Positions 7,318-32,000 are shown, counted from the stretch's first letter. The stretch: DNA of 32,000 bases from Candidatus Saccharimonadota bacterium (GCA_965228485.1 OZ245819.1:600001-632000); one strand, 5' to 3'. Notes: generated by a model from the sequence alone, not told the origin. Translations and numbers: made by a program.

Positions 7318-7480
7318 AGTAAATATCAGAGATAAGGTAGTAAAAAATTAAAAATTAAAAAACCCTATTTCCAAGAAAACTTCACTTTTCAGTAACAAAT
7401 TGATCAAGAATACATTAAATCTTCCTGATGCATTAAAGACTTTTCATTGGTAGAATTGAAAATCATACAAAAAAACACAA

Positions 7481-8026: not shown

Positions 8027-8067
8027 CTCCTAGAAAAATAGGTGACACTACAGATGAAGACTCATGA

Positions 8068-12296: not shown

Positions 12297-12298
12297 AA

Positions 12299-13234: not shown

Positions 13235-13245
13235 GTATTCTTAAT

Positions 13246-13998: not shown

Positions 13999-14001
13999 GG
14001 T

Positions 14002-14628: not shown

Positions 14629-14690
14629 TTTTTACCAATAATAAAAGTCGAGCTTTACGAGGATTTTCCGACTCGCTAGAATGATACTAA

Positions 14691-16450: not shown

Positions 16451-16502
16451 TAAGCATCATAATAATCTCCAAATACAAAATCAAACTCAAGCCTACAATC
16501 TT

Positions 16503-19355
16503 CTACTCCGTTTTTGGAGCCGTTTCTTCAGGCGAAACTGGAGCCAATGATTTATCTGAAGTTGCCGCTTGTGCAATAGTTGTTCCGACTGGTGCTTCTG
16601 CTGGTGCTTCAGGTTTATCGGTTAATAATTGGTCTGGGACCGTCGGATCTTTTTTAGCGGCATCTTCAATAGCGCTTAAATTTCCAATTCCCATTCGTGC
16701 TTCGATTTCAGCATCTACAAATTCTTTCTTACGACCGTATTTCATCCGAGAATATTTATGAATAATCTCCGCAATTTTCCAGTTCTTCAATGTTGGGTCG
16801 TACAACGTCTCCATAGAGAACGGCCGCGAAGTAGTATTATTAATATTTAGCTTGATGTAGGCTTTATAATTCGCAATTCCAAGAATGTCCTGCTGAGATA
16901 ATGATGGAGAATATTCTTTTTCTAAGTATTCAGCATCATCCGCCCCGACTTTAAAACTCATCATTGTTCCCACATTCCCAAATACGGCATCTCGAATTTT
17001 TGAATCTTTTTGTCCAACCGCTACTCCTCCAGCAGATTCTGATAACTGAGCGATGTACTGATGGGCCATGATAAGATTTAATCGGTACTTACGAGCCTCA
17101 GAAAGGATAGCCGCAAAAGTATCGGTCGCAAAATTCTGAAACTCATCCACATAGAGGTAAAAATCTTTCCGTTCATCCGCCGGTTGATCCACCCGACTCA
17201 TTGCCGCCTGATTGATTTTCGCCACCATAATCAACCCTAAAAGCTGGGCATTAATAGCTCCTATTCGCCCTTTCGAAAGATTGATTAAAAGTACTTTTTG
17301 ATTATCCATAGCTTCACGTACATTAAAGGCTGATTTTGTCTGTCCAATGATGTTACGCATAGTCGTGTTCGTCACGAATGGACCAAATTTAGAAGTGAAG
17401 TACGGAATCATTTCTTGTTTTTCTCGGTCTCCAGTATTCGCCATTTCATTTTCCCAGAAGGCTCTTACGACTGGATTTTTTACCTTAGAAACTTTGTAAC
17501 GCTGAAAATCATCATCAATAAACAACCGTGGAATATCAATAAGGGTCGCGCCTTCCTCTTCGTCTGACATAAGCGTCAAACAACCATTACGAAAGTAATG
17601 CTGAATACGTGGACCAAAGATTTCATTTCCGAAAAGCTTGATGAAGATTTCCATGGCATCAAGCGAAGCTCTATCTTGCTCTTCTTCGGTTTTGGCCTCA
17701 AGCACATTAAGTCCCATTGGACGATCTCGATCCCCTGGATCGAAAACAACAATATCTTTGGCTCGTTCTTTAGGTGTACAAGAAAGCACATCTTCTACAA
17801 GATCACCATGAGGATCAATCACACAGACACCCTCTCCCGCATGAACATCCTGCCAAGCCATATTCCACAAGAGCACCGATTTCCCCGAACCAGATTTCCC
17901 CACTACATAGGTATGTCTCGTACGATCGTTTCGGAGCATATGCACTAACCGTTCTTCTCCCCGATAAACATTTTTACCAAGGATAACCCCTTCTTGTGGC
18001 AGATTAATAGGGGGTGGTAGTACTTTGTAATCCATCCAACGAATGGTTGGAATACGGTTATAACGAGCATCTGGAAAATGGAAAATTGTTCCAAGCTCTT
18101 CAGAAGCCAGAATAGAATTAAATTCAAAAAGATTACTCAATCTTAATCGGTAATTGTGATGAATAATCGGACTATTAATTTTATTGATAAAAAAGATTCG
18201 TCGATTTTCAAAATAGTTTTTCCCCTTACCTTTAAAAGCATTGAAGGCAACAAAAATACCATTCAAAATTTCCTGACATTTGTCGGGACCATGAGGAGTA
18301 GAAACCATCACTCGGGTAATCGTGTCAAACCCAGATTGAAGCGCTTTCTCCCCAATAGCTTTAGCTACCTCTTCTTCAGACTGCAGCATTCGAACGTAAC
18401 TATCTCCCCCACTGGCGCCTGGAGCATTTGTTCCTCCGTCAACCGCTGGATCATATCCAGTCATCATAACTTTTGGTAGCCACCAAATAGCACTTAAAAT
18501 TGGTCCAATAATCGGAACATCTAAATGACCTTTTTTCTTTTTCCCTTTGAATAGTCGAGTTCCTTCTTTCTGAGCTTTTTTTCTCCATCTTTTTGATTTT
18601 GGATGAATCACCATTTGAACCACAGCTTTTTCAGACTTATCCAGCTTAGAAAAAGAATTGGCCACCTCATTAAGGGCATCATCTTCTAGATTTTTATAAG
18701 TCTGAATTGGATACCAAAAATCCTCTTTTGTATAAAGATAAAACCCATTCACATAAGCATTATTTGTTTTAAGATCGATACGCTTATCTTTTGGGATTTC
18801 TTCAATTTCAGCTGATTCATAAAAAGAAGTTACCAGCTTCTGAATAATTGATTTGTAATAAGGATCACAAACAATTACAAAACTCAATTCTTGTTCCTCA
18901 AATTGAAGCTCAAATGAAATCTGAGGTTTCCCCCAAATCCAACGCTTAATAAAAACATTGTAGAGATTCAAGTCACGTGTCTCATGAAGTGCTCGATAAA
19001 ACTGTTCCGCTTTTCCTATCTGTTCTTTGAAATCTTTATCGGTCCGTTTTTCATTATCTAATTTCGAATCATTCTTTGGAAGAATTACTCTCATATGAAT
19101 TAATCGCCCCTCTTCTTTTCGATCGTGGATATACCGTATAGTGAAACGGATTAACACGAAAAGTGTATAGATATCTAAAGCTAAAAACACTCCATGAGTA
19201 ATAATCTGCCACCACTCCATTTGAGCATTAATTGTCGACCAAGGATCAGCTTCCGTAAACCATGCCGTAATCAACAAAAAAGCCAAGCGCATTCGATATG
19301 CACTTCGGGCAATTATGCCAATTCTGAGCAAGATTATTTTTAGGAGTGTTCCCAT
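16503..19355 (-). CDS. Membrane-anchored VirD4/TraD/TraG-like (type IV coupling protein-like) P-loop ATPase
   Basis: Two N-terminal hydrophobic helices and a ~400-aa domain I do not recognise. Walker A VVGKSGSGKSVLL lies at nt 17877-17900. Walker B is FYLYVDEFQNF, followed by ARKYRLNLIMAHQYIAQL, as in the TraD/VirD4/FtsK-HerA clade. The C-terminal tail is disordered, acidic and Pro/Ala-rich. Confidence 0.75.
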   Translation of the reverse strand: MGTLLKIILLRIGIIARSAYRMRLAFLLITAWFTEADPWSTINAQMEWWQIITHGVFLALDIYTLFVLIRFTIRYIHDRKEEGRLIHMRVILPKNDSKLDNEKRTDKDFKEQIGKAEQFYRALHETRDLNLYNVFIKRWIWGKPQISFELQFEEQELSFVIVCDPYYKSIIQKLVTSFYESAEIEEIPKDKRIDLKTNNAYVNGFYLYTKEDFWYPIQTYKNLEDDALNEVANSFSKLDKSEKAVVQMVIHPKSKRWRKKAQKEGTRLFKGKKKKGHLDVPIIGPILSAIWWLPKVMMTGYDPAVDGGTNAPGASGGDSYVRMLQSEEEVAKAIGEKALQSGFDTITRVMVSTPHGPDKCQEILNGIFVAFNAFKGKGKNYFENRRIFFINKINSPIIHHNYRLRLSNLFEFNSILASEELGTIFHFPDARYNRIPTIRWMDYKVLPPPINLPQEGVILGKNVYRGEERLVHMLRNDRTRHTYVVGKSGSGKSVLLWNMAWQDVHAGEGVCVIDPHGDLVEDVLSCTPKERAKDIVVFDPGDRDRPMGLNVLEAKTEEEQDRASLDAMEIFIKLFGNEIFGPRIQHYFRNGCLTLMSDEEEGATLIDIPRLFIDDDFQRYKVSKVKNPVVRAFWENEMANTGDREKQEMIPYFTSKFGPFVTNTTMRNIIGQTKSAFNVREAMDNQKVLLINLSKGRIGAINAQLLGLIMVAKINQAAMSRVDQPADERKDFYLYVDEFQNFATDTFAAILSEARKYRLNLIMAHQYIAQLSESAGGVAVGQKDSKIRDAVFGNVGTMMSFKVGADDAEYLEKEYSPSLSQQDILGIANYKAYIKLNINNTTSRPFSMETLYDPTLKNWKIAEIIHKYSRMKYGRKKEFVDAEIEARMGIGNLSAIEDAAKKDPTVPDQLLTDKPEAPAEAPVGTTIAQAATSDKSLAPVSPEETAPKTE

Positions 19356-19372
19356 GTGAATAAAATCCCTTA

Positions 19373-19401
19373 ATTATAATGCATTTTAAGGCTTTTTTCA
19401 A
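19373..19401 (-). promoter_or_regulatory. Sigma-70-type promoter for the ATPase gene (TTGAAA-N17-TATAAT)
   Basis: The minus strand reads TTGAAAaaagccttaaaatgcatTATAAT. The -10 element ends 17 nt upstream of the ATG at 19355. Confidence 0.45.
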
Positions 19402-19423
19402 TGGAAAGCTCTAGACAAACAAC

Positions 19424-19458
19424 AAAAAAACCAGATTTGATACTAAACCTGGTTTTTT
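19424..19458 (-). terminator. Rho-independent terminator after the 1437-aa gene
   Basis: Minus-strand RNA has the stem CCAGGUUU, loop agtatc, stem AAAUCUGG (one G-U pair), then U7. It lies 19 nt downstream of the stop at 19477. Confidence 0.6.
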
Positions 19459-19476
19459 GTAAAAATTTGAGACTTT

Positions 19477-22400
19477 TTATCCTTGAACCTCTTCTCTCCA
19501 ATCAGTTCCAAGGAATTGCTCTAGAATTGGAGGCGTTGCCTCAAGTAGTCGAAGGTCAAAATTAACGACTAAACTTGGCTCTGGAACAGGGAATCCGTTG
19601 GCATCCACTGGCGCTACCGAAGTATCTCCAATGTATTTTCGGAAACTCAACAAGTGCGCTAGATTACCGATAAGATTTCCTGAAACATTAAGTTGTTTAT
19701 CAGAAATGTCATCATTCTTGGCCTTAATTTGTCCTCGTTCCACTAGGAATGTACCATGAATTTCTTCAACATTTTTATCAATCAATATATCTCCATCTTG
19801 TACTACAAAAGCTACAAAGTGAGGACTCGGAATATTATTGAAGTCGCTATTGATGATAAGATCACCATTTTCAACAATGAATGTTACACTTCGAGTAAGG
19901 CCTGCAATATTCACAGAATCTAAATCCAGATCTCCATTGTAGAAGTAAACTCCTGATTCATACTCATGTGTTCGGAAGTTATTTCCAAAAGCACTTTGTG
20001 TTTGAGTATTTTGATTTAGATTTTCATAGAAATCGTTATTATCAACGTTCTGAAAGTTCCCAAGCTCATCAAATTCGTCCATCGTTAGTACGTCTGGCAC
20101 AAACAAGTTGTTATCACTCATGATTTCACTAATTGTTTGTGGTTTCCCTGTTACTTTTTCGGCCTGAGAAGACTGAATTCCTACATTCCCCGCTTTGGCT
20201 CGAATAAATGGTCTGATAATTTGAACCTGAGCGCTTGAACCGAGTGAAGAGATACTTCGAACGTACTGCTCCAGAGTCGGAGGTGTACAAGCATTATCTC
20301 CAATACCAATTCGTTTAAATCCTGTGGCACTTGTAGCTCGATTTCTGTACGTGTACTCAATCACCGCAAAGGCTACATTTTTAAGTTGAGAAGTATCTTT
20401 TTCAGACGCTAGAGCTGTATTCATATCATAATGAACTTTGTATTGTGCAAACCCTGCATTGTTCAGATCGCCAATTTCAGTTGAAGTAAGCGTTCTTTCA
20501 AAGTAATCTTTATCTTCGGCACAGTTCCCTGGTTTACCACACCATCTCCAAGTGGCATTATCATCTCCATCAATAATTCCGTGTCGATTCCAGATATTCC
20601 CAGATTCCTCTGGGATCATCATGTCGTAGACTTTGATTTTCCCCGTTAGAATTTCGTAAGCCGTTTTATCAAAGTTAAGATTATCAACCGTAATTTCGTA
20701 GGTAACAATGTCTGATTTAGATACGGTGATTTTTTTCACTAGAGAGCCACTATCATTATTTTTTACCTGTTTATTAATCGTTGCTCCAACATTGAAACAC
20801 TCTGGACAATCTCCTACTGGCTCACAAGGAGTTGGCGGATGTGGAGGCTGGATAGTGCCACATTGTGCGGCAATTTCTGCTGAGGTAGGAGAAGCAAATG
20901 GATCAATAACTCCTCCAATATTAGCTCCACAGAGCTTAAGGTCTTGATTTTCTGCCCAATCCAATACACAAGATCGTTCTCGAGTATTAGCCGTATTTCG
21001 TGGTTCTGTATTTCCTACTACACAATTCCGGTATGACTGCCATAGAGGATCACTCGGATCTTCTACTGGCCGACGGTTTGTACATTGTTGTGCTCCAGTA
21101 TTTGGATGGATAGTACACGTTCCTACTCGTGGAATAGTGTCTCCACTACCCCCTCCTGTATCAATCGTTACATTACTTGGATCTTCATCATTTACTTGTG
21201 GATCTCCATTTACTGGATCTCCTGTTACTCGAGCGATATTTGTGAAAGCTGAAGTAACATTTTCTAACTCACAAACGTAAGTGAATGACTCATTTGAATC
21301 GAATATCCCATCCGCATTGCCAGTGGCTTGAATCAATGGCAATGTTTGAGCGGCTGTTCGCTCACAGTCTGGAGCGAGTAGATCCGTCACAATTACATTT
21401 GTAAGGCTTTCGGTTCCATCATTAGTAACCTTAATGGTAAAGGTGGCTGTTCCGCCTCCTACTGGCATTTCTTGGGTATCATGCCCATCACTATCAGGAG
21501 TTCCTGGAGTTGAGTCATCTTTATCAATATCAATAGAAGGTCCTGTTGGATTTCCTGGGATAACCACTTCTGTTGGATCGGTATCATTTACGATTTGATC
21601 ATCTACCACAGATTCCCCTGTAACCGTTGCTGTATTCGTATAAGAGTCTGTTACATTTGTATCTTCACAGGTATAAGTAAACGATTCTCCTGGATCGAAA
21701 ATATTATCTCGATTCCCAACCGCTTGGATCAATGGTAAAGCTTGAGCGATAGTTCGAGCACAGTTTGGTTCTCTCCCATCGTCAATTCGTACATTCTTAA
21801 GTCCTTCACTTCCCGTATTTGTTACCTGAATCGTAAAGATTGCTGTTCCTCCACGAGCGACTCGTTGAGTATCATCTCCATCTGTATCTGGATCTCCTGG
21901 AGTCGAGTCATCTTTGTCGATTTCAATAGCTGGAGCATCCTCTACCCTTACCTCTGTTGGATCTTCATCGGTAACTGTTGTACCAGAGCCAACTCCAACC
22001 CCACTTACTTGAGAATCATTATCCCCATCAACAAATGTTGTCGTTTGTACATTCTCTTTCGTACAAGTGTAAGAGAATGAATTTCCTGGAGAAAGAACAT
22101 TGTCACCATTTTCAACGGCTTGAATTAGTGGAAGTGTCTGAGCGGCTGTTCGAGCACAATCAGTAGCTTCCGCATCAGTAATAACAATATCTCGAAGTCC
22201 TTCTGTTCCGGTATTGGTTACTTTAATCGTAAAGGTCGCTGTTCCTCCTGGAACGACTACCTGTGTATCATCTCCATCATTATCGGCTGTTCCCGGAGTT
22301 GAATCATCTTTATCAATTTTGATATCTGGTCCTGCTGGTGGTCCTACAACCACTTCTGTAGGGTCAGTATCCGTTACTTTTGTTGTATCATCATACGTAG

Positions 22401-23790
22401 ATATTCCTTCTGTATAAGCTACATTTGTATAACTAGCTGTTACGTTTGTATCCTGACAGGCGTAAGTAAACGACTCTCCTGGATCGAAAATATTGTCTCG
22501 ATTTCCAATCGCTTGAATCAATGGTAGTGCTTGGGCAACTGTTCGAGCACAACTTGGTGCTAAAGTATCGTTAACCAACACATCTTTTAATCCAGTTTCT
22601 CCATCGTTAGTTACTTTGATAGTAAAGTTTGCCGTTCCTCCAACTTCAACTCGCTGAGTATCATGGCCATCATTGTCAGGCGTTCCTGGAGTTGAGTCAT
22701 CTTTATCAATTTTGATTGAAGGATTTGGTTTTCGAATATTAACGGTATCACCACAAAGGTTACGGCTATCTGGATTCTTAATATTACATCTTAATGTCGC
22801 TCCATCATTTGCCGACATTGGAATAGTAATTAGTTTATTTCCGTTAGCAGAGACTGTTTCATCAATATTAACACCTGTTCCAGATCCTCCACATACAAGT
22901 TTACTTCCTGATTCTAAATCTTGAGTTCTCCAAGTAAATCGTACTTGTTCTCCAGCAATAACTTCATCTTTATTAAATTCTGCTTCTTGACAGCTTGGCT
23001 GCGCATCAACAATTTTAAAGTACATTACTACCACTCGAGAATTCCCAGCTGAACCAGCAACATCTCCTAAATTAACCCTAGCTGTTTTCGCGCTAGGTCG
23101 ACTTGAAGAAACAGTTTGATGTGACCAGTTGGTATTCCCATTTGTCTGACAAGTTCCATAAAGACTGTGTCCTGGTGGATAATAATCTGGAAAATTTCTC
23201 TTACCAACCGTCGTTCTTTGAAACTCTAAATCAAAAGTCCCTCCCCCCTGAAGACGAAGATCTACAATATCATTAATTACCTGAGGATTAGCATTACTTG
23301 CTGCAATACTCGACACCACCTTTCTAGGATCGCTCCAGTCTACAGTTACGGTTGTATTTCGCGCATGGTTGATTCCACCACAACCCTGATTAGCATTATT
23401 ATGCACATACGTAAACACACGAATAACATCTCCTTTTCGAAGATTGGTTAATGTATGTTTATAAACCCTCGGGGCATCAGTATTTTTTGCCGCAGTAACA
23501 AAATCCCTCTCATCATCCAAATTCCCAAGCCCATTAGAAGCAATATATGCCGCTCGTTGACTATCTGAAATTGTCCAAGGCATATGTCCTCTAACCTGAG
23601 GAAGCCACGGCTGATTATGAATTAGATTAAATTGAACAGAATTCCCAATACCACTATTTACATTAATCCCATTAACTCGTTTATTAGATCGGTTATTAGG
23701 AAAAAAATCACCTGACCCAGCATACGTTGCGGTGGGCAAGAAAATAGATAGCACTAGGCTAGCGGCAACCGTTTTAAAACATCTCATCAT
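19477..23790 (-). CDS. Giant secreted surface protein with four DUF11-type (conserved repeat domain) repeats
   Basis: Signal peptide MMRCFKTVAASLVLSIFLPTATYA|GS. Four ~131-aa repeats start xIxIDKDDSTPGxxDxDGxDTQ and contain GGTAxFTIKVTNxG (the DUF11 hallmark) plus a Cys pair. A Cys-rich region follows, then a C-terminal ~180-aa domain. No LPXTG motif or TM anchor was seen. Confidence 0.8.
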   Translation of the reverse strand: MMRCFKTVAASLVLSIFLPTATYAGSGDFFPNNRSNKRVNGINVNSGIGNSVQFNLIHNQPWLPQVRGHMPWTISDSQRAAYIASNGLGNLDDERDFVTAAKNTDAPRVYKHTLTNLRKGDVIRVFTYVHNNANQGCGGINHARNTTVTVDWSDPRKVVSSIAASNANPQVINDIVDLRLQGGGTFDLEFQRTTVGKRNFPDYYPPGHSLYGTCQTNGNTNWSHQTVSSSRPSAKTARVNLGDVAGSAGNSRVVVMYFKIVDAQPSCQEAEFNKDEVIAGEQVRFTWRTQDLESGSKLVCGGSGTGVNIDETVSANGNKLITIPMSANDGATLRCNIKNPDSRNLCGDTVNIRKPNPSIKIDKDDSTPGTPDNDGHDTQRVEVGGTANFTIKVTNDGETGLKDVLVNDTLAPSCARTVAQALPLIQAIGNRDNIFDPGESFTYACQDTNVTASYTNVAYTEGISTYDDTTKVTDTDPTEVVVGPPAGPDIKIDKDDSTPGTADNDGDDTQVVVPGGTATFTIKVTNTGTEGLRDIVITDAEATDCARTAAQTLPLIQAVENGDNVLSPGNSFSYTCTKENVQTTTFVDGDNDSQVSGVGVGSGTTVTDEDPTEVRVEDAPAIEIDKDDSTPGDPDTDGDDTQRVARGGTAIFTIQVTNTGSEGLKNVRIDDGREPNCARTIAQALPLIQAVGNRDNIFDPGESFTYTCEDTNVTDSYTNTATVTGESVVDDQIVNDTDPTEVVIPGNPTGPSIDIDKDDSTPGTPDSDGHDTQEMPVGGGTATFTIKVTNDGTESLTNVIVTDLLAPDCERTAAQTLPLIQATGNADGIFDSNESFTYVCELENVTSAFTNIARVTGDPVNGDPQVNDEDPSNVTIDTGGGSGDTIPRVGTCTIHPNTGAQQCTNRRPVEDPSDPLWQSYRNCVVGNTEPRNTANTRERSCVLDWAENQDLKLCGANIGGVIDPFASPTSAEIAAQCGTIQPPHPPTPCEPVGDCPECFNVGATINKQVKNNDSGSLVKKITVSKSDIVTYEITVDNLNFDKTAYEILTGKIKVYDMMIPEESGNIWNRHGIIDGDDNATWRWCGKPGNCAEDKDYFERTLTSTEIGDLNNAGFAQYKVHYDMNTALASEKDTSQLKNVAFAVIEYTYRNRATSATGFKRIGIGDNACTPPTLEQYVRSISSLGSSAQVQIIRPFIRAKAGNVGIQSSQAEKVTGKPQTISEIMSDNNLFVPDVLTMDEFDELGNFQNVDNNDFYENLNQNTQTQSAFGNNFRTHEYESGVYFYNGDLDLDSVNIAGLTRSVTFIVENGDLIINSDFNNIPSPHFVAFVVQDGDILIDKNVEEIHGTFLVERGQIKAKNDDISDKQLNVSGNLIGNLAHLLSFRKYIGDTSVAPVDANGFPVPEPSLVVNFDLRLLEATPPILEQFLGTDWREEVQG
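21142..22719 (-). repeat. Four tandem ~393-nt coding repeats (DUF11 modules) with an A-B-A-B relationship
   Basis: Repeats start at aa 358, 489, 621 and 752. Repeats 1 and 3 share ARTxAQALPLIQAxGNRDNIFDPGESFTYxCxDTNVTxSYTN. Repeats 2 and 4 share RTAAQTLPLIQA. Confidence 0.85.
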
Positions 23791-23817
23791 AGGTGGATTA
23801 ATTTAGATTTTTGAGAT

Positions 23818-23967
23818 TTAAAGTATTTCTTGAATAGATTCATGTGGAGCAGGCTGAATATTCAGCTCTGGAGGTAAAATCACAGGTCTTGTAAAGTAAT
23901 AAATTAGACCCGCGGCAATTAATACCAATACAATGAATCCGATAAGAGCGTTCTTTTTATTTTTCAT
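23818..23967 (-). CDS. 49-aa single-pass membrane peptide upstream of the giant gene
   Basis: MKNKKNALIGFIVLVLIAAGLIYYFTRPVILPPELNIQPAPHESIQEIL*. It is too short for the ORF track. It has a basic N-terminus and one TM helix, lies 27 nt upstream of the giant gene and just downstream of a strong promoter-like site. Confidence 0.45.
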   Translation of the reverse strand: MKNKKNALIGFIVLVLIAAGLIYYFTRPVILPPELNIQPAPHESIQEIL

Positions 23968-23988
23968 GGAATTTTATTTATTCTGACT

Positions 23989-24017
23989 ATTTTACCACAG
24001 ATTCTATCACTTCGCAA
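23989..24017 (-). promoter_or_regulatory. Extended -10 promoter (TTGCGA-N17-TAAAAT with TGTGG upstream)
   Basis: The minus strand reads TTGCGAagtgatagaatcTGTGGTAAAAT. The -10 element ends 21 nt upstream of the small-ORF ATG. Confidence 0.45.
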
Positions 24018-24092
24018 CCAAAGTCTCAATCCGTATTTTGTCCAATATCTTTATATTTGTATATTACATTTTTTGTTTTTGTCAAATATTAT

Positions 24093-24124
24093 AAAAAAAA
24101 CCTTCAATTTCTTGAAGGTTTTTT
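24093..24124 (-). terminator. Rho-independent (bidirectional-looking) terminator after the Hint-domain gene
   Basis: Perfect 9-bp stem AACCTTCAA / TTGAAGGTT with loop TTTC. It is flanked by an A8 run on one side and a T-run on the other. It lies ~25 nt downstream of the TGA-TAA stop. Confidence 0.65.
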
Positions 24125-24148
24125 ACTTTTCTACTTATCTCAGTATTA

Positions 24149-27484: not shown

Positions 27485-27509
27485 AACATTAAAATTGAAA
27501 AATCCGACC

Positions 27510-27538
27510 ATTATACCACAGAAGGAAGAAAAAATCAA
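27510..27538 (-). promoter_or_regulatory. Extended -10 promoter of the Hint-domain gene (TTGATT-N17-TATAAT, TGTGG upstream)
   Basis: The minus strand reads TTGATTttttcttccttcTGTGGTATAATgg. The -10 element ends 25 nt upstream of the ATG at 27484. Confidence 0.5.
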
Positions 27539-27589
27539 ATGACAAATTTTATACCAAACACAAATCGGGAAAAGAGTCGTTTTTAGTCA

Positions 27590-27618
27590 TTGATTTTAGA
27601 TTAAAAATATGTTAAAAT
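27590..27618 (+). promoter_or_regulatory. Promoter of the 894-aa gene (TTGATT-N17-TAAAAT with TG at -14/-15)
   Basis: TTGATTttagattaaaaatatgtTAAAAT. The -10 element ends 25 nt upstream of the ATG at 27644. It is divergent from the previous promoter. Confidence 0.4.
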
Positions 27619-27643
27619 CCTAGGATTTTGTGTATTTATATTA

Positions 27644-30328
27644 ATGAAGTTTTGGCCTCTCAGTCACAACAACACCGATACTCGATGGATATTCAATGGT
27701 CCACCGGGAGCGGCTAGTGGACCCAGTGAAGGCATAAATCTTGAAAGACTCGAAAAAGAGGAAGCAATAAGAAATACTGAATCTGCCCTCGCAGAACTAC
27801 AGTCACGAGTAGAAACTGAAAACGGAGTGGAAAATCTGAGCTTAGATGAAAAGTTAGATATTCTTATCAGGATAGCAAGAAACGAAGCTATATATGATGA
27901 TGAGGAAGATAGCAGAGGGAGGCTAGCCCAGGCACGAGACTGGGTTGGTTCGGGACTGGAAGGGGTAAGCGATATATCCAAACATATTGGACTCGGGGGG
28001 TTTGAAGGATTTACACGTTCAGCTCAGGAAGCCACGGATCTCTCAACAGAAGCTTATGTGATTTCGATTCTAAAAGACGACGTCGTCTTAACTCGTTTTC
28101 TCTCTGAGCACCAAGAGGACTCTTTTAATCTCTTTACTGATCGAGTTGGAGATAATACCTATAGAACTAAGCTTTTTGGTAACAAAAATTTAGAAGCCAA
28201 TGCAAATTTCATGGAACTACTCTCTCCAGCTCCAGAAAATAGGTACCTAGAAATAAATGGAACTCATTTTGTTCGAACTCCTCACGGTTATGCTGCCTTT
28301 TTCCCAAAATCAGAAGTTGGAAAAAGAGCGAAGATTGAGTCTACTACCGTTTTTAAAACTTCATCATCTTTAACACCCGAGTCTCCAGAAGCAGAAAGTT
28401 TAGTAAATTTAAAAAAAAATAATCCTTTTTTTAGAAATATAGAAAGTGGGGCTTCAGTTGCTGTACTTGAACAGAGACGAAAATTCAATTTTCATACTTC
28501 TCAAACCTGGAAAAGACTAGCAGATGAACTCAAAGAGTCTTTTAAAGATAGTCCTACTTTCCCGGAAATGGCAGATACTATTCCCGAATCATTTAAAGTG
28601 TTTCTAGATGGAAATTTTTATGCTAAAAATTTAATAACAGCATCAACACAAACAACTGCAAACATCGAAGTAATAGGAATTACAGAAGCATTATTCGCAA
28701 CAGATGAACCACATATTTTTAGAGAAAAAATTACAAAAGCAATTGGACTTATTGCAAAGCACCTAAAAGAAAAAATTGACACACTGAGTAAAAAAGCAAA
28801 AGAAGAAAAAGACCCAGAAAAAAAGAAAGAGTTACAAGAACAGTCAGAGCAAATTTCTAACAATATCCCTAAAATATTTGGAACTATTCAAGAATTTATC
28901 ACCGATGAATTAGAGAACAATAGCGCAGCTATGAATGCTAATGAAAAACTATTTTCACGAGAATTCCCAGACCTACCACCAGAAAGTATTAATACATTTT
29001 TAACTGAGTTCGATACAGAAATAAAAGACCTTATGGAAAGTAAGGAACTAACAGAGGGTGAAGCCATGCATATTGCAGGAACATTATTTGGAAAAATACT
29101 GGGAAGTAATCTTGAAGGCACTTTAGAAGATTATCCACACATAAAAAACCTTGTGTTAGCACGTATCAACATCATAACGAAAGAATATGGAATTACGTCT
29201 CTCTCTAAATCTGCCGAAGTAATACAACAGGAATATGAAATAGCGAGAGACCTAAATGATCCTAGTAGTCCTGTTTCTCAAATTGCTGCAGAATTGGGAA
29301 TCGATCCAAAAACAGAACTTTCCCTAGAAGACCTTGAGGCTATTGCTGCAAAACTTAAAGAAAAATACGAAGCTGCTGAAAAAGCTAATAAAGAAGGCGT
29401 AGGGATCCCAACACCTGTAATTACAAAATATCTAAGAAGTTATGAAAACTTCTTAGGAAAAGTCGCCAGACTTCGAGCCGCTCGTAGAGAGGCTGCAGAA
29501 GCTAGAGACGAAGCGATTACAGTCGAAAGAAATACTGAAACTATAATCCCAGAATTGGAAAATATTTTTGATCCTGAAACACCAGAAGGAAAAAGATTTC
29601 ATGAAACTGTAGATATATCTGCGGAGTATATTCGTGAATATGCAGCCCAAAATAATGGAGCTATCCCACCAGACTTTACGAGTGAAAAATTTAATGAAAT
29701 AAGTACTCGATTAGAAGCCGGAGAAAGTCCTGAATCTATCCGACTATCTCTTGGACTCAAATCTCAGACATCTTCTCCAGAGTCTATTTCTGGACAATAT
29801 TTATCTCCACGGGCTATTCCTGCTGGGGCGACCAATGCAAGAACTCTAGAAAATGGAAATTTAGCCTTCGATGCGGGATCAACAACAATCGAAGTAGATA
29901 GCACCACCAATCCTCCAAGCATGTTCCCTCACGGAACAGAAGGTCTACAGCGTGAATGGATGACTATGCCAGCAACCGCTAAAAATGTACTGGCAATACA
30001 AATTGGTGGGGCGGTAATGAGTGCCAGTGTGGAAGATGGTCAAGAAGGACTAGGATTGATGTTTAGAAAAATGGGACGAGAAAAGTTCCAGATTTTACTC
30101 AGAAACCTTTCTTTCCCAAGAATGGGAAGACTGCTTCAGCCAAAAGAAGAAGAGGGGCTTCAGGCTATAAAAAACCAATTTGGAAGCATTGATATTATTT
30201 TCGAAAAACTGGGACTCCTTCGTGAAGACGGCCAAGCCGCTCCCGAAAATGTCGATGCCCGTACATCTGAACAATTTTTCAATATTCTTACCAGCGCAGC
30301 CGTTGGAAACTTCAAGTCTCTTGAGTAA
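27644..30328 (+). CDS. 894-aa acidic, helical protein of unknown function with the shared N-terminal motif
   Basis: Long uninterrupted ORF with normal coding texture. The N-terminus is MKFWPLSHNNTDTRWIFNGPPGAASGPS. It has Glu/Lys-rich coiled-coil-like stretches. No signal peptide, TM helix or recognisable domain was seen. Confidence 0.75.
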   Translation: MKFWPLSHNNTDTRWIFNGPPGAASGPSEGINLERLEKEEAIRNTESALAELQSRVETENGVENLSLDEKLDILIRIARNEAIYDDEEDSRGRLAQARDWVGSGLEGVSDISKHIGLGGFEGFTRSAQEATDLSTEAYVISILKDDVVLTRFLSEHQEDSFNLFTDRVGDNTYRTKLFGNKNLEANANFMELLSPAPENRYLEINGTHFVRTPHGYAAFFPKSEVGKRAKIESTTVFKTSSSLTPESPEAESLVNLKKNNPFFRNIESGASVAVLEQRRKFNFHTSQTWKRLADELKESFKDSPTFPEMADTIPESFKVFLDGNFYAKNLITASTQTTANIEVIGITEALFATDEPHIFREKITKAIGLIAKHLKEKIDTLSKKAKEEKDPEKKKELQEQSEQISNNIPKIFGTIQEFITDELENNSAAMNANEKLFSREFPDLPPESINTFLTEFDTEIKDLMESKELTEGEAMHIAGTLFGKILGSNLEGTLEDYPHIKNLVLARINIITKEYGITSLSKSAEVIQQEYEIARDLNDPSSPVSQIAAELGIDPKTELSLEDLEAIAAKLKEKYEAAEKANKEGVGIPTPVITKYLRSYENFLGKVARLRAARREAAEARDEAITVERNTETIIPELENIFDPETPEGKRFHETVDISAEYIREYAAQNNGAIPPDFTSEKFNEISTRLEAGESPESIRLSLGLKSQTSSPESISGQYLSPRAIPAGATNARTLENGNLAFDAGSTTIEVDSTTNPPSMFPHGTEGLQREWMTMPATAKNVLAIQIGGAVMSASVEDGQEGLGLMFRKMGREKFQILLRNLSFPRMGRLLQPKEEEGLQAIKNQFGSIDIIFEKLGLLREDGQAAPENVDARTSEQFFNILTSAAVGNFKSLE

Positions 30329-30342
30329 TAAGACAGAAGCAT

Positions 30343-30371
30343 TTCAAAAAAACATTAATCTGTGGTATAAT
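30343..30371 (+). promoter_or_regulatory. Extended -10 promoter of the third large gene (TTCAAA-N17-TATAAT, TGTGG upstream)
   Basis: TTCAAAaaaacattaatcTGTGGTATAATgg, followed by GAGGA 3 nt before the ATG at 30394. Confidence 0.45.
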
Positions 30372-30393
30372 GGAGAGATTTTTTTGAGGAACA

Positions 30394-32000
30394 ATGCAAA
30401 AGTGGTGGCAGTTTCCCAACTCTGAAATCCGATCAAAATTTTGTTTTGAAGTCGGAGGTGGCCCTGGATCTCATACAGATTCTGGGGCAGAAACTGTTAG
30501 AGCTACAAGTAATGATGCAAAAACTGAAACCACGGAGGATATCGCGGGTATATTTGACCGAATTTCTGGCGCGCTAAAACCAGAAGAAATGAGCGAAGAA
30601 ACCAAAGATAAATTGGCTGAAAATAAAACTTACTTTCAATCTAAAGAATCCGAAATACAACAGGAAATTGATAAAAACAATCAACAAATTTCGACTTATC
30701 AAGAAGAAGTAGAAACTCTTCAAACAGAAAAACAAAGTCTAGAAGAAACCAATGATGCAGATGCTGAATCAAATATCATTCTTGGACTCATGCCAAATAG
30801 TCATGAAGAGTTTATGAATTTTGTGAAAACAAATCGCCCTTCTTCTGATGAAATCCGAAACTATCTACAAAGTGATGCTCTAGAAGATGTAAGCGATGAA
30901 CAGATTCAAGCCGTACTACCACTAGCAAGCCAAATGGTTACCAAACTTAATAAGATTGATGAAATTACGAAACAGATCAAAGAAAAAAAAGCTGAAATAG
31001 CAAAATTAGAAGCTATTAACCAAAAAAAACAAGAAGAGAAAAAAGCGAATTTAGAAACCGCCACTACATCGTTTCAGAGAATTGTAGAGGCAAATATAAA
31101 ACCTGATGCTGAGGATTTAGATGGTAAAAGTGCTGAAGAATTAGAAGATCTTCAACGAAACAGAACTCAGGCTATTTGGGCAGTACATAATCGTATTGCT
31201 GAGTCTATCAGATCAGGAGAACTCCCAGAACCAACCCAGCAAACTCTCATTAGTAATTTAAAGAAACTAGAACATTCAGAAGTTACAACCCAAGAGGAGG
31301 CTCTTACCATGATTTTAGCTGGAGTTGAAGGGGTTACCGCTGAAGAATTAAAAGCCTCTCCATACTTTGCTGATATACAAACAAAGCTAAATCTCATGGG
31401 AGAACGAAGCACTGTCAGAACAGAGAGTGATACACGTCCAGAGGAAACCACTACTGACACAGAAACCGAAGATCCACTGAAAGGTCATGAAACTTTCGGC
31501 CCAGACATGGAAGGTTTTTATCAAGAAAAAGCTGTAGAAAAAACTGGCGAAATTTGGGATGCTCACAATGAAATTGCAGAAATGATACGTGAGACGGAAT
31601 TATCTCCAGAGGCTCAACAAAAAATTATTGCGAATATCAAAAAACTCGAATACTACCCAGGGGCTACAGAAGAAGAATTTATCGCTATTGTACTTGCGGG
31701 AGTCGAGGGGGTAACCGCCGAAGAATTAAAGGCTTCTCCTTATTTTGCCAGACTTCAAGAAAAATTAACGCTTATAAAACAACGAAATGATATCCAAGTC
31801 AAAATGACCGAAGTTCAAAAGGCAAAGGTCCTTAGAAATATAAGTAATCTCGTCGAGATTTTTGTTACTAACGATGAGTTCTTTGCTGGCAATATTGCTC
31901 CTGAAACAAGGGCAAAGCTTAATGCCTTAAAACAACAAATTGATAGTGGTGCAGAAATTGATTTTCAAGAAGCTTCTACACTTATTACTCAGGTTATCAA
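30394..32000 (+). CDS. Large acidic coiled-coil-like protein (more than 535 aa, 3' end outside the window) with the shared N-terminal motif and an internal 76-aa duplication
   Basis: My own translation from ATG 30394 stays open to nt 32000. It is absent from the ORF track because no stop is reached. The sequence starts MQKWWQFPNSEIRSKFCFEVGGGPGSHTD..., with Glu/Lys/Gln-rich heptad-like stretches. Confidence 0.75.
   Translation, partial: MQKWWQFPNSEIRSKFCFEVGGGPGSHTDSGAETVRATSNDAKTETTEDIAGIFDRISGALKPEEMSEETKDKLAENKTYFQSKESEIQQEIDKNNQQISTYQEEVETLQTEKQSLEETNDADAESNIILGLMPNSHEEFMNFVKTNRPSSDEIRNYLQSDALEDVSDEQIQAVLPLASQMVTKLNKIDEITKQIKEKKAEIAKLEAINQKKQEEKKANLETATTSFQRIVEANIKPDAEDLDGKSAEELEDLQRNRTQAIWAVHNRIAESIRSGELPEPTQQTLISNLKKLEHSEVTTQEEALTMILAGVEGVTAEELKASPYFADIQTKLNLMGERSTVRTESDTRPEETTTDTETEDPLKGHETFGPDMEGFYQEKAVEKTGEIWDAHNEIAEMIRETELSPEAQQKIIANIKKLEYYPGATEEEFIAIVLAGVEGVTAEELKASPYFARLQEKLTLIKQRNDIQVKMTEVQKAKVLRNISNLVEIFVTNDEFFAGNIAPETRAKLNALKQQIDSGAEIDFQEASTLITQVI
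31171..31776 (+). repeat. Two copies of a 76-aa module, 126 aa (378 nt) apart
   Basis: Copy 1 (31171-31398): AIWAVHNRIAESIRSGELPEPTQQTLISNLKKLEH...ILAGVEGVTAEELKASPYFADIQTKLNLM. Copy 2 (31549-31776): EIWDAHNEIAEMIRETELSPEAQQKIIANIKKLEY...VLAGVEGVTAEELKASPYFARLQEKLTLI. Confidence 0.85.

What the first reader, a model, noticed from the sequence alone, without database searches (positions are those of the whole stretch)
16503..32000. Candidate undescribed export / cell-surface locus: orphan T4CP-like ATPase, giant DUF11 protein and three signal-less giant acidic proteins
Half of the window is occupied by five very large genes (950, 1437, ~1111, 894 and more than 535 aa) plus a 49-aa membrane peptide. 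They are organised as at least five transcription units with promoter-like sites and two clean terminators. Only the ATPase has a recognisable catalytic core. The giant protein is clearly Sec-exported and adhesin-like. The other three have no signal peptide or TM helix, yet one of them carries modules that normally act outside the cytoplasm (a PG-binding-like repeat and a Hint autoprocessing domain). All three share an N-terminal motif. No VirB4, VirB6, relaxase, integrase or pilin gene lies in the window, so this is not a recognisable conjugation or T4SS operon. T4SS-like ATPases and large surface proteins are known to matter for host-dependent lifestyles in reduced-genome Patescibacteria. 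Whether this locus is such a system is my inference.
Basis: partly seen in the sequence, partly recalled or inferred. Interest (0 to 1): 0.85.

Follow-up and report, generated by a model that had tools for sequence, protein, structure and literature searches.

The report
Adhesin island beside conserved membrane ATPase
In an uncultivated ultra-small (Patescibacteria) bacterium, a giant Sec-exported adhesin, a small membrane peptide and three fast-evolving proteins that share a previously undescribed N-terminal tag sit beside a widely conserved VirB4/VirD4-type membrane ATPase; relatives keep this gene neighbourhood, but nothing yet shows that it works as an export machine.

Summary
All six genes, the domains and the shared N-terminal motif are confirmed.

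- **ATPase.** It is not special to this locus. It is 52-77% identical across at least 478 matches in Peregrinibacteria/Gracilibacteria genomes. Orphan T4CPs in Patescibacteria are already published. In 22 distant relatives it sits between glyS and an adjacent or overlapping LCP wall-ligase gene. New here: its DUF8128 domain folds like the VirB4 N-terminal domain.
- **Giant protein.** It is an ordinary CLIPPER/DUF11 fibrillar adhesin. Its 550-aa C-terminal module and its position (small anchored peptide, then giant, then ATPase) are kept in about 15 related lineages. The genes overlap in some of these. In this window they are separated by a terminator and a promoter.
- **P4/P5/P6.** They belong to an undescribed set of at least 21 signal-less proteins (196-1395 aa) that share the tag MKF-x8-14-[RK]-aromatic-aliphatic-aromatic followed by a Gly/Pro-rich stretch. 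P4-type members repeatedly carry PG_binding_1. P5 and P6 are paralogues. These genes usually cluster beside the adhesin, but three distant P5 homologues lie in housekeeping contexts with no ATPase or giant nearby.

Best reading: a clade-specific surface and attachment island. A dedicated new export route is possible but unproven.

The parts
16503..19355 (-). Membrane ATPase of the VirB4/T4CP superfamily, 950 aa. Layout: two N-terminal TM helices (19134-19355), a DUF8128 VirB4-NTD-like domain (18006-19133), and a TrwB-like P-loop domain with an all-alpha insertion (16686-18005).
   Evidence: Pfam and NCBIfam hits to T4CP families. Walker A G486-S493 and Walker B D737-E738 are invariant in 60 homologues. 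AF2 model pLDDT 76.5. Foldseek: TrwK/VirB4 aligns over the full length and TrwB over the ATPase domain only. The DUF8128-only model hits only TrwK/VirB4.
19373..19401 (-). Promoter-like site of the ATPase gene (TTGAAA, 17 nt spacer, TATAAT; 11 of 12 matches)
19425..19458 (-). Intrinsic-terminator-like hairpin (14-bp stem) after the giant gene. It separates the giant from the ATPase.
19477..23790 (-). Sec-exported fibrillar adhesin, 1437 aa. Layout: signal peptide (23719-23790), an N-terminal region with no domain match, 4 CLIPPER/DUF11 stalk repeats (about 21151-22728), and a clade-specific C-terminal module of about 550 aa (19480-21153).
   Evidence: CLIPPER literature PMC12617251
23818..23967 (-). 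49-aa peptide anchored by an N-terminal TM segment. It lies 27 nt upstream of the giant and is probably co-transcribed with it. Homologous or analogous TM peptides or lipoproteins precede the giant in 11 related loci.
24001..24029 (-). Promoter-like site for pep49 plus the giant. A TGTGGTAAAATAG extended -10 element lies just downstream at 23987-23999.
24095..24124 (+). Terminator-like hairpin (13-bp stem, flanked by A and T runs) just downstream of the P4 stop codon
24149..27484 (-). P4, 1111 aa, acidic and without a signal peptide. Layout: N-terminal tag (27410-27484), PG_binding_1 (26294-26464), a (GDS)n linker (24674-24808), a bacterial intein-like Hint domain (24230-24673), and a 26-aa acidic tail (24152-24229).
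27510..27538 (-). P4 promoter-like site. Its extended -10 element TGTGGTATAATGG is identical to that of P6.
27590..27618 (+). P5 promoter-like site
27644..30328 (+). P5, 894 aa, acidic and without a signal peptide. It has the N-terminal tag (27644-27718), a conserved 'LFTD...VRTPxGY' region and a family C-terminal domain. It founds an undescribed family.
30343..30371 (+). P6 promoter-like site (extended -10 element TGTGGTATAATGG)
30394..32000 (+). P6, cut off by the window end (full length 877 aa, P0126). It is a paralogue of P5: they share a C-terminal region of about 280 aa at 35% identity, E 1e-28. It carries the N-terminal tag.

Best explanation
The right half of the window is a clade-specific cell-surface (probably host-attachment) gene neighbourhood on the chromosome of a Peregrinibacteria/Altimarinota-type Patescibacteria bacterium. 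It is not an operon and not a recognisable secretion machine.

**Conserved core.** A small N-terminally anchored peptide or lipoprotein, then a Sec-exported CLIPPER/DUF11 fibrillar adhesin with a family-specific C-terminal module of about 550 aa, then a membrane ATPase. The ATPase has two TM helices, a VirB4-NTD-like DUF8128 domain and a TrwB-like P-loop domain with an all-alpha insertion.

**Variable shell.** One to four fast-evolving acidic proteins without signal peptides. Their only common feature is an N-terminal tag of about 25 aa (M-K-[FLY]-[LWFI], 8-14 residues, [RK], aromatic, aliphatic, aromatic, then a Gly/Pro-rich stretch) followed by a short helix.
- P4-type members add PG_binding_1. 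Here P4 also has a bacterial intein-like autoprocessing domain inserted in its acidic tail.
- P5/P6-type members share a conserved C-terminal domain.

**What is shown.** Gene content, domains, conservation of the neighbourhood, and the tag.

**What is inferred.**
1. The adhesin leaves the cell by the Sec pathway. Because it has no sorting motif, it is tethered through the co-transcribed small peptide and/or its C-terminal module.
2. The tag is a shared recognition peptide. It brings the otherwise unrelated proteins to one partner, for Sec-independent delivery to the wall or surface, or for docking there. This would explain peptidoglycan-binding domains in proteins that have no signal peptide.
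3. The ATPase is a class-wide enzyme with a broader envelope-related or macromolecule-translocating job. It may or may not be that partner.
For: **Neighbourhood**
- The giant with the same C-terminal module lies directly upstream of the ATPase in about 15 lineages. The gap is -4 to 18 nt in L018, L015 and L090, and 106-186 nt in the window's subclade.
- Reverse search from the giant: the ATPase is downstream in 4 of 4 loci.
- A small TM peptide or lipoprotein precedes the giant in 11 of 14 related loci checked (not found in L009, L012, L018), as pep49 does in the window.

**Tag**
- It occurs in 21 proteins from at least 11 genomes.
- A regex matched only four ORFs of 971, all signal-less proteins of 711-1395 aa.
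- The cross-genome HMM ranks P5, P4 and P6 on top of the window ORFs.
- It is present in 7 of 9 P5 homologues found independently by their protein bodies.
- Four tagged genes lie beside a lipoprotein gene and the start of the giant in L094.

**Wall link**
- PG_binding_1 recurs in P4-type members: window 25.4 bits; L091 33.9 bits; L085 precomputed; L095 20.4 bits, below the curated cut-off of 23.
- A weak (sub-threshold, 20.8 vs 23.4 bits) YkuD-like L,D-transpeptidase match lies inside the island in L088.

**Components of known kinds**
- Hint domain: closest solved structure is the bacterial intein-like domain 2LWY (1e-8). Catalytic residues are present.
- Adhesin: CLIPPER domains are the stalk of fibrillar adhesins (PMC12617251). 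Large variable extracellular proteins are known in Peribacteria (PMC4736985).
- ATPase as a core gene. An LCP gene follows it directly (-155 to +156 nt by longest ORFs; most overlap or lie within 14 nt) in 22 loci.
Against: - There are no expression, localisation or interaction data.
- In the window the genes have their own promoters, and two terminators separate the units.
- pyrE downstream of the ATPase is conserved in most of the close relatives too, so some of the linkage may be phylogenetic inertia.
- Tagged proteins are seen only in the subclade whose ATPase is at least 70% identical. The L015/L018 lineage has peptide (L015 only; none found in L018), giant and ATPase without them.
- Three distant P5 homologues lie in housekeeping contexts.
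- Most loci were sampled around the ATPase, so proximity is partly built into the sampling.
- The tag is weak (6-14 bits out of sample) and could not be searched at database scale.
- PG_binding_1 also occurs in signal-less phage endolysins.
Confidence: 0.5

Rival explanations
1. A dedicated, previously undescribed protein-export system. The VirB4/T4CP-like ATPase recognises the N-terminal tag and drives P4/P5/P6-type proteins across the membrane. The small peptide and the giant act as accessory or conduit components. This would be functionally analogous to T7SSb (EssC plus LXG substrates) or to T4CP-dependent effector export.
For: - Signal-less proteins carry peptidoglycan-binding and bacterial intein-like domains that normally act outside the cell.
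- Otherwise unrelated protein bodies share the tag.
- Tagged genes cluster beside a hexameric-translocase-type ATPase.
- The giant and ATPase genes overlap or nearly touch in L018, L015 and L009.
- Tag variants look genome-specific, for example GRF[IV]xF in both L088 proteins.
Against: - The ATPase is 52-77% identical across at least 478 matches. Tagged proteins were found only in one small subclade.
- Elsewhere the ATPase is paired with an LCP gene.
- Full-length homologues occur in Bacillus phages and plasmids that show no such substrates.
- Known T4CP signals are C-terminal (my own knowledge of the family).
- The genes are separate transcription units here.
- Some P5 homologues are unlinked to the ATPase.
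- No channel component (VirB6-like or EssB-like) was found.
Confidence: 0.12
2. No functional connection. The ATPase does something unrelated, such as DNA uptake or translocation, or envelope-polymer export together with LCP. P4, P5 and P6 are cytoplasmic proteins whose shared N-terminus is a small structural or regulatory element. The adjacency is inherited gene order in a region that tolerates insertions between dnaJ and the adhesin.
For: - Each gene has its own promoter, and there are terminators.
- pyrE, adk and map are conserved alongside in the closest relatives.
- The island's content varies: P4 is absent in L004 and L084, and all tagged genes are absent in L015 and L018.
- The P5 family also occurs beside thrC or thiI.
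- There are weak NCBIfam hits to the archaeal DNA-import ATPases CedB and CedD.
- The ATPase is paired with LCP in distant relatives.
Against: - PG_binding_1 recurs in P4-type members of four genomes.
- The giant and ATPase genes overlap in some lineages.
- Up to four tagged genes pack against the lipoprotein and the giant.
- The divergent P4-type/P5-type gene pair recurs (window, L088, L091, L094).
Confidence: 0.25
3. Remnant of a mobile element (ICE, conjugative plasmid or prophage). The coupling-protein gene and its cargo survive after the rest of the T4SS was lost.
For: - The ATPase has homologues at 20-30% identity on Bacillus and Streptomyces plasmids and in Bacillus phages, and it matches phrog_5156.
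- P4 carries an intein-like element.
Against: - The gene is vertically inherited. It lies in a syntenic housekeeping context across the class.
- The window has no integrase, relaxase or tRNA gene.
- GC content is even at 0.33-0.43 across the window.
- The paper on the Patescibacteria T4SS likewise finds chromosomal T4CPs without relaxases.
Confidence: 0.03
4. P4 is a polymorphic toxin or effector of the PT-HINT type, and the island is a toxin and immunity cassette.
For: - PT-HINT is the best Pfam hit for the P4 C-terminus (2.9e-9).
- The paralogues are hypervariable.
Against: - Only a 26-aa Gly/Asp/Ser tail follows the Hint domain, so there is no toxin domain.
- The homologue L001_778 has the same acidic tail without any Hint domain, so the Hint looks like an insertion.
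- No small immunity-like gene follows. The next feature is a terminator.
Confidence: 0.05

Closest known systems
Orphan VirD4-type coupling proteins (T4CP) of Patescibacteria (Quinonero-Coronel et al. 2025, PMC12102498)
   Same: - It is chromosomal and has no relaxase. It is not near virB4.
- It hits the same T4CP profiles (PF02534, PF10412).
- The authors already suggested it has been exapted for another function.
   Different: - The paper does not describe the DUF8128 VirB4-NTD-like domain.
- It does not describe the fixed adhesin neighbour, the pairing with LCP, or the tagged proteins.
VirB4 (TrwK of plasmid R388; PDB 7O43, 8RTD)
   Same: - Two-domain layout: an N-terminal domain plus a RecA-like C-terminal domain.
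- Foldseek aligns it over the full length (E 2e-12).
- The DUF8128-only model hits only TrwK (E 1e-4, TM-score normalised to the query 0.40-0.47).
   Different: - There is no sequence-level VirB4 (PF03135) match.
- The C-terminal domain profiles are T4CP-like, with an all-alpha insertion.
- It has its own two-TM anchor.
- It has no VirB3, VirB6 or VirB8 neighbours.
CLIPPER/DUF11 fibrillar adhesins (PMC12617251) and the large variable extracellular proteins of Peribacteria (PMC4736985)
   Same: - Signal peptide, tandem CLIPPER stalk repeats and variable repeat number.
- Rich in cysteine (27 Cys).
- Varies at strain and lineage level.
   Different: - No recognised adhesive tip or sorting/anchor domain.
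- Instead it has an unannotated, clade-specific C-terminal module of 550 aa.
- It has a conserved small-peptide partner gene.
Bacterial intein-like (BIL) / PT-HINT domains
   Same: - Hint-family sequence match with Cys1, TxxH and a C-terminal HN.
- The +1 residue is not a nucleophile (Lys).
- It sits in a hypervariable protein.
   Different: - No toxin or other cargo lies downstream.
- It is inserted in a low-complexity acidic tail.
- Autocleavage was not tested.
T7SSb (EssC ATPase, small membrane proteins, LXG/WXG substrates): functional analogy only
   Same: - A membrane-anchored FtsK/HerA-superfamily ATPase.
- Neighbouring signal-less, helical, polymorphic proteins that share an N-terminal module.
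   Different: - No WXG100 protein, and no EssC architecture with several P-loop domains.
- No EssA, EssB or EsaA homologues.
- The tag is about 25 aa and strand-like, not a helical LXG domain of about 200 aa.

Membership tests
Type IV coupling protein (VirD4/TraG/TraD/TrwB) | N-terminal transmembrane anchor (usually 2 TM helices) | tested here: met
   The Kyte-Doolittle scan flags one TM-like segment, starting at residue 50 (mean 2.06). AF2 models long helices at 2-33 and 48-84. The first TM segment is inferred from the model and from reading the sequence.
Type IV coupling protein (VirD4/TraG/TraD/TrwB) | P-loop nucleotide-binding domain with Walker A and B motifs and an inserted all-alpha domain | tested here: met
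   - GKSGSGKS at 486-493 and DE at 737-738 are invariant.
- The model has a helical insertion at about 557-670.
- PF10412 2.5e-8.
- TrwB aligns with TM-score normalised to the target of 0.57-0.63.
Type IV coupling protein (VirD4/TraG/TraD/TrwB) | Score above curated family thresholds | tested here: inconclusive
   Pfam PF02534 scores 35.2 bits against a cut-off of 20.1, which passes. The NCBIfam TraD and VirD4 models are far below their cut-offs (46.5 against 366; 40.2 against 250).
Type IV coupling protein (VirD4/TraG/TraD/TrwB) | Works with a relaxase or a VirB-type channel encoded in the same element | tested here: not met
   None is present in the window or in the related loci whose genes were annotated or scanned with Pfam (L001, L084-L086 and the window). 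A distant virB4 cluster elsewhere in the genome could not be checked.
VirB4 ATPase | N-terminal domain plus C-terminal domain architecture | tested here: inconclusive
   There is fold-level similarity only. TrwK is the top hit both for the full model (E 2e-12, about 950 columns) and for the DUF8128-only model (the top 13 hits are all TrwK, TM-score normalised to the query 0.40-0.47). The tool does not give target residue ranges. Model pLDDT is 71-76.
VirB4 ATPase | Sequence match to the CagE/TrbE/VirB4 family, with VirB3/VirB6/VirB8 neighbours | tested here: not met
   No such Pfam hit at E of 0.1 or less. The only VirB4-type NCBIfam hit is TraC-F-type at 13.3 bits against a cut-off of 567. 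No such neighbours.
Fibrillar adhesin with CLIPPER (DUF11) stalk | Signal peptide and tandem CLIPPER repeats | tested here: met
   N-terminal hydrophobic leader ending in ...ATYAGS. PF01345 scores 69.3 bits with 4 stretches, and TIGR01451 scores 51.6 bits.
Fibrillar adhesin with CLIPPER (DUF11) stalk | Recognised anchoring or sorting domain (LPXTG, OmpA-like, C-terminal TM and so on) | tested here: not met
   No C-terminal hydrophobic segment. The C-terminal 560 aa match no Pfam family or PDB sequence.
Bacterial intein-like (BIL) / Hint autoprocessing domain | Hint-family sequence match with Cys1, TxxH and a terminal HN | tested here: met
   PF07591 scores 37.7 against a cut-off of 27.7. 2LWY matches at 1e-8. 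C938, T1001/H1004 and H1084-N1085 are present, and the +1 residue is K1086. Cleavage activity was not tested.
PT-HINT polymorphic toxin | Toxin domain C-terminal to the Hint domain, with an immunity gene downstream | tested here: not met
   Only a 26-aa low-complexity tail follows, and then a terminator.
Double-glycine leader / peptidase-containing ABC exporter (PCAT) substrates | GG at positions -2 and -1 with hydrophobic residues at -4, -7 and -12, and a C39-peptidase ABC exporter nearby | tested here: not met
   Many tags lack GG (L021, L091_952, L004_943). Position -4 is often Glu (P6, P0128, P0129). No Peptidase_C39 or ABC exporter appears in the annotated loci.
T7SS (EssC/EccC plus WXG100/LXG) | FtsK-like ATPase with several P-loop domains, and WXG100 or LXG substrates | tested here: not met
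   The ATPase has a single P-loop domain. There are no WXG or LXG Pfam hits in P4, P5 or P6.

The most novel reading that the evidence does not exclude
The MKF...[RK]-aromatic-aliphatic-aromatic N-terminal tag is a new Sec-independent targeting signal. The DUF8128 VirB4/T4CP-like ATPase, together with the small anchored peptide and the adhesin, forms a minimal, previously undescribed export or surface-display system. Peregrinibacteria-type Patescibacteria would use it to place fast-evolving wall-binding and effector-like proteins at the contact site with a host.
Probability: 0.12. Interest if true: 0.85.

Novelty: new variant of a known kind. Interest (0 to 1): 0.55.

Why it matters
Patescibacteria make up a large share of bacterial diversity and mostly live attached to other cells. 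How they build their attachment surface, and what their many orphan T4CP-like ATPases do, are open questions.

This locus offers three concrete handles:
1. A conserved gene triplet (small peptide, adhesin, ATPase) that ties the orphan ATPase to the cell surface in one clade and to an LCP wall-polymer ligase in another.
2. Fold-level evidence that the ATPase keeps a VirB4-like N-terminal domain, which bears on how VirB4 and T4CP diverged.
3. An unannotated family of signal-less, peptidoglycan-binding or otherwise unknown proteins united only by an N-terminal tag. Such a pattern is expected for a targeting signal.

If the tag proves to be an export or docking signal, it would let one list candidate host-interaction proteins in these uncultivated genomes by sequence alone. 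If it does not, the locus is an ordinary variable surface-protein island.

Tried and rejected
**Searches that failed or could not be run**
- Extending the contig. The look-up of encoding contigs does not hold this genome's proteins and the genome is not among the GTDB representatives returned. The right flank was inferred from relatives instead. P6 is 877 aa. In L004 dnaJ follows the P6-like gene, and in L095 (which has no P6-like gene) it follows the P5-like gene. No VirB4-like or VirB6-like gene is seen.
- Word-index homologue searches for P5 and for P4 residues 1-925 found nothing beyond self. Only the exhaustive phmmer search found P5 relatives.
- A database-scale search with the tag itself was judged unworkable. 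True members score only 6-14 bits out of sample, while about 28-30 bits would be needed in 1.8 billion sequences.
- Both structure-prediction jobs went to the ATPase, so no model of the P5 family, of P4, or of the giant's C-terminal module was made. In hindsight that was a poor allocation.

**Ideas tested and dropped**
- A common C-terminal domain between P5 and L004_711/943: not significant.
- Tag as a double-glycine leader, prepilin signal, Tat signal or lipobox: rejected on sequence. There is no consistent GG spacing, no hydrophobic stretch, no RR motif and no Cys.
- T7SS-like system, ICE or prophage, and polymorphic toxin: see the rival explanations and membership tests.
- A hydrophobic N-terminal extension of P4 from the TTG at 27538: rejected, because the codon lies inside the -35 box and homologues start at MKF.
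- Large signal-less acidic proteins as a general neighbour of the ATPase in distant clades: only sporadic, for example L033_1215 and L023_655.
- Promoter and terminator counts are not above shuffled sequence, so only their positions are informative.

Full report
**1. What is in the window**

- ATPase: 16503-19355(-), 950 aa.
- Giant: 19477-23790(-), 1437 aa.
- pep49: 23818-23967(-).
- P4: 24149-27484(-), 1111 aa.
- P5: 27644-30328(+), 894 aa.
- P6: 30394 to beyond 32000(+).

Pfam and NCBIfam confirm the domains. The ATPase hits T4CP-type families. The giant has four CLIPPER/DUF11 stretches and a signal peptide. P4 has PG_binding_1 and a Hint domain. P5 and P6 hit nothing.

P4, P5 and P6 are acidic (pI 4.6-4.9) and have no hydrophobic segment.

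The left half of the window holds housekeeping genes: pyrE, adk, map, a Na/H exchanger, a CitMHS transporter, an IF-2B-like gene, csd, xth and others. Three unannotated secreted proteins sit among them. There are no tRNA or Rfam hits. GC content is even across the window.

The organism belongs to the Patescibacteria group and uses the standard genetic code. The closest ATPase matches are MAGs labelled Altimarinota, Peribacteria or Gracilibacteria.

**2. Transcription units**

The best promoter-like sites sit in the intergenic regions upstream of the ATPase, pep49 plus the giant, P4, P5 and P6. Long-stem terminators follow the giant (19458-19425) and P4 (24095-24124). Overall counts do not exceed shuffled sequence, so only the positions carry information.

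P4 and P6 share an identical 13-nt extended -10 element, TGTGGTATAATGG. pep49 has a variant with two mismatches. About 0.6 matches at up to two mismatches would be expected by chance.

The TTG that would give P4 a hydrophobic extension lies inside its -35 box, and homologues start at MKF. So in this genome the giant and the ATPase are not one operon.

**3. The ATPase**

*Distribution.* It is one of the best-conserved proteins in this lineage. 713 proteins scored E of 1e-5 or better, and the top 120 are 58-77% identical over about 900 residues. At least 478 matching stretches occur in species-representative genomes.

*Prior work.* The literature already reports 5,713 VirD4-type T4CP homologues in 2,918 Patescibacteria genomes. 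Only 148 lie near virB4. The Southlakia copy is not essential for epibiotic growth (PMC12102498). 'Orphan T4CP' is therefore known.

*New anatomy.*
- The full AF2 model (pLDDT 76.5) matches TrwK/VirB4 over about 950 columns (E 2e-12).
- The same model matches TrwB only over the P-loop domain.
- A model of the DUF8128 domain alone (residues 75-450; pTM 0.71) hits TrwK/VirB4 chains as its 13 best matches. It hits no other P-loop ATPase.
- I therefore read DUF8128 as a VirB4-NTD-like domain. This rests on the hit pattern, because the tool gives no target residue ranges.
- Sequence profiles of the C-terminal half remain T4CP-like and include the all-alpha insertion.

*Homologues on mobile elements.* Full-length homologues exist in large Bacillus phages: phage G gp156, phage JL and phrog_5156 at 1.8e-73. 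'DUF87' proteins on Bacillus and Streptomyces plasmids also match.

**4. Context of the ATPase across relatives**

I called ORFs in 83 loci and compared them.

*Distant clade (ATPase 52-58% identical).* The neighbours are dtd, glyS, then the ATPase, then an LCP (LytR_cpsA_psr, 5.4e-37) gene, then a dnaQ-like exonuclease. The LCP gene directly follows the ATPase in 22 loci (gaps -155 to +156 nt by longest ORFs; it overlaps or lies within 14 nt in most).

*Close clade (64% identity or more).*
- A giant signal-peptide protein lies directly upstream on the same strand in most loci.
- An HMM of the window giant's last 560 residues shows that this is one orthologous adhesin in about 15 lineages. Its repeat number varies widely (1100-3049 aa), but its C-terminal module is fixed.
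- The gap to the ATPase is -4 nt in L018, 18 nt in L015 and L090, an overlap in L009, and 106-186 nt in the window's subclade.
- Starting from the giant instead (metagenome scan), 4 of 4 loci have the ATPase downstream.
- A small N-terminally anchored peptide or lipoprotein (49-92 aa) directly precedes the giant in 11 of 14 related loci checked, as pep49 does in the window. pep49 is clearly homologous to the 53-aa peptides of L004 and L084.

*Caveat.* pyrE downstream is conserved in most of the close relatives too. Some close relatives lack the giant altogether: L010, L011, L014, L086 and L019.

**5. The giant**

It is a typical fibrillar adhesin. CLIPPER (formerly DUF11) domains are isopeptide-stabilised stalk modules of surface adhesins (PMC12617251). 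Large, variable, cysteine-rich extracellular proteins are a described feature of Peribacteria genomes (PMC4736985).

What is unusual is that it has no recognisable anchor. Its conserved C-terminal module of 550 aa has no Pfam or PDB match. I infer, without a test, that this module and/or the co-transcribed small peptide tethers it to the cell.

**6. P4, P5 and P6**

*Homologues.* P5 and P4 have no homologues in the word-indexed search. The exhaustive search of 1.84 billion representatives found nine P5 relatives. One of them, P0126, is the full-length P6 of this genome (877 aa). It shares a C-terminal domain of about 280 aa with P5 (35% identity, E 1e-28), so P5 and P6 are paralogues.

*The tag is kept in independently found relatives.* Seven of the nine relatives carry the N-terminal motif, although they were found through their protein bodies. 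The family also keeps an 'LFTD...VRTPxGY' region and the C-terminal domain. It has no Pfam or PDB match.

*Extent of the tag.*
- Together with neighbours in related loci, I count 21 tagged proteins of 196-1395 aa from at least 11 genomes.
- The consensus is M-K-[FLY]-[LWFI], 8-14 residues, [RK], [FWY], [IVLC], [FWY], then a Gly/Pro-rich stretch, an acidic linker and a short helix.
- A regex matched only four ORFs of 971, all large signal-less proteins.
- No further member appeared among 1078 ORFs scanned with the HMM, apart from the truncated L084 P6-like ORF.

*P4-type members.* These are the window P4, L001_778, L052, L085_1070, L091_952 and L095_753. They are unrelated to the P5 type beyond the N-terminal region. 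They repeatedly carry PG_binding_1.

*The P4 Hint domain.* Its closest solved relative is a bacterial intein-like domain (2LWY, 1e-8). It has all cleavage residues but Lys at the +1 position. It looks like an insertion in the acidic (GDS)n tail, because L001_778 has the tail without it. No toxin domain follows.

**7. Where the tagged genes lie**

*Beside the peptide and the giant.*
- In the window, L001/L088, L004, L084, L052, L087, L094 and L095 they flank the peptide-giant(-ATPase) core. Often a P4-type and a P5-type gene form a divergent pair.
- L094 has four tagged genes in 7 kb next to the lipoprotein gene and the start of the giant.
- L095 and L004 show dnaJ as the far boundary of the island.
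- L088 has a weak, sub-threshold YkuD-like L,D-transpeptidase match inside it.

*Elsewhere.*
- The L015/L018 lineage has the giant and ATPase without tagged genes; a small peptide precedes the giant in L015 but none was found in L018.
- The more distant P5 homologues P0127, P0129 and P0130 lie beside thrC or thiI in housekeeping contexts. No ATPase or giant is present in the sequence available: 10 kb on both sides in L092, 10 kb upstream in L097, and about 2 kb in L096.

Most loci were fetched around the ATPase, so proximity is partly built into the sampling. A whole-genome census is needed.

**8. Reading**

*Shown.*
- A conserved, clade-specific surface-gene neighbourhood.
- A core ATPase of the VirB4/T4CP superfamily with recurrent envelope-related partners (the adhesin in one clade, LCP in another).
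- A new N-terminal tag shared by otherwise unrelated, fast-evolving, signal-less proteins, some of which carry peptidoglycan-binding domains.

*Inferred.*
- The tag is a targeting or docking signal.
- The small peptide tethers the adhesin.
- The ATPase takes part.

Because the ATPase is universal in the class and the tagged proteins are not, its primary function cannot be to export them. A dedicated export system therefore remains a minority reading (about 0.12).

A double-glycine leader, a prepilin signal, a Tat signal, a T7SS, a mobile element and a polymorphic toxin were each tested against their defining features. None was met (see the membership tests).

**9. Verdict**

The ATPase and the adhesin are members of known kinds. 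The conserved triplet, the VirB4-like N-terminal domain and the tag family are new details. They amount to a new variant, not a new kind of system. Interest is moderate (0.55): the finding gives a concrete, testable hypothesis for uncultivated organisms, but the evidence is contextual only.

Noticed in passing
L036-L082 (22 loci), e.g. L058:9866-13730: In the more distant Peregrinibacteria (ATPase 52-58% identical), an LCP-family (LytR_cpsA_psr, 5.4e-37) gene follows the ATPase gene on the same strand. By longest ORFs it overlaps or lies within 14 nt of the ATPase in most of the 22 loci (range -155 to +156 nt). dtd and glyS lie upstream. This suggests an operon that links this orphan ATPase to attachment of wall polymers.
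   Followed up: partly
window 16503-19355; Bacillus phage G gp156, phage JL, phrog_5156: Full-length homologues of the ATPase (TM anchor, DUF8128, P-loop domain) occur in large Bacillus phages. 'DUF87' proteins on Bacillus and Streptomyces plasmids also match. Scores: phrog_5156 1.8e-73; Foldseek against BFVD 2.6e-38. Their function in phages is unknown.
   Followed up: partly
window 10998-13234: A CitMHS/ArsB-type transporter gene and an IF-2B-family (MtnA-like) gene lie between the Na/H exchanger and map. In the syntenic relatives L001 and L004, map and the exchanger are adjacent. This looks like a local insertion.
   Followed up: no
window 14691-15821: A 376-aa secreted protein with 20 cysteines and no Pfam match. 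It is kept (about 34% identity) beside pyrE in L001, L004, L084, L088 and L089.
   Followed up: no
window 7318-8067: A stretch of about 750 nt between csd and the methyltransferase gene with no ORF of 60 aa or more and no tRNA or Rfam hit. The two genes are separated by only about 50 nt in L001. It may be a decayed gene or an unannotated element.
   Followed up: no
window 27508-27520(-) and 30361-30373(+); 23987-23999(-): P4 and P6 have an identical 13-nt extended -10 element (TGTGGTATAATGG) about 20 nt before the ATG. pep49 has a variant with two mismatches. This may reflect co-regulation or a duplicated 5' region.
   Followed up: partly
window 31300-31800 (P6 residues about 305-325 and 435-455): P6 has an internal duplication: the sequence 'LAGVEGVTAEELKASPYFA' occurs twice about 130 residues apart, within a larger repeated module.
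   Followed up: no
L073:15912-18503: A second, TM-anchored paralogue of the ATPase (863 aa) lies 3.4 kb downstream of the first copy in one Peregrinibacteria contig.
   Followed up: no
L086:14149-22754 and L085:4838-9727, 12786-17102: Other giant genes of a different kind lie near the ATPase in relatives. They are 1627 aa, at least 2372 aa, 1629 aa and 1438 aa, and carry Laminin_G_3, Peptidase_S74 or fn3-like domains. The region seems to be a general hotspot for large proteins, several of them with predicted signal peptides.
   Followed up: no
L015:12787-14640, L018:12815-14623: In the lineage where the giant and ATPase genes overlap or nearly touch, a secreted Laminin_G_3 (ConA-like lectin) protein of about 600 aa abuts or overlaps the 3' end of the ATPase gene. 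This gives a tight three-gene unit: adhesin, ATPase, lectin.
   Followed up: partly
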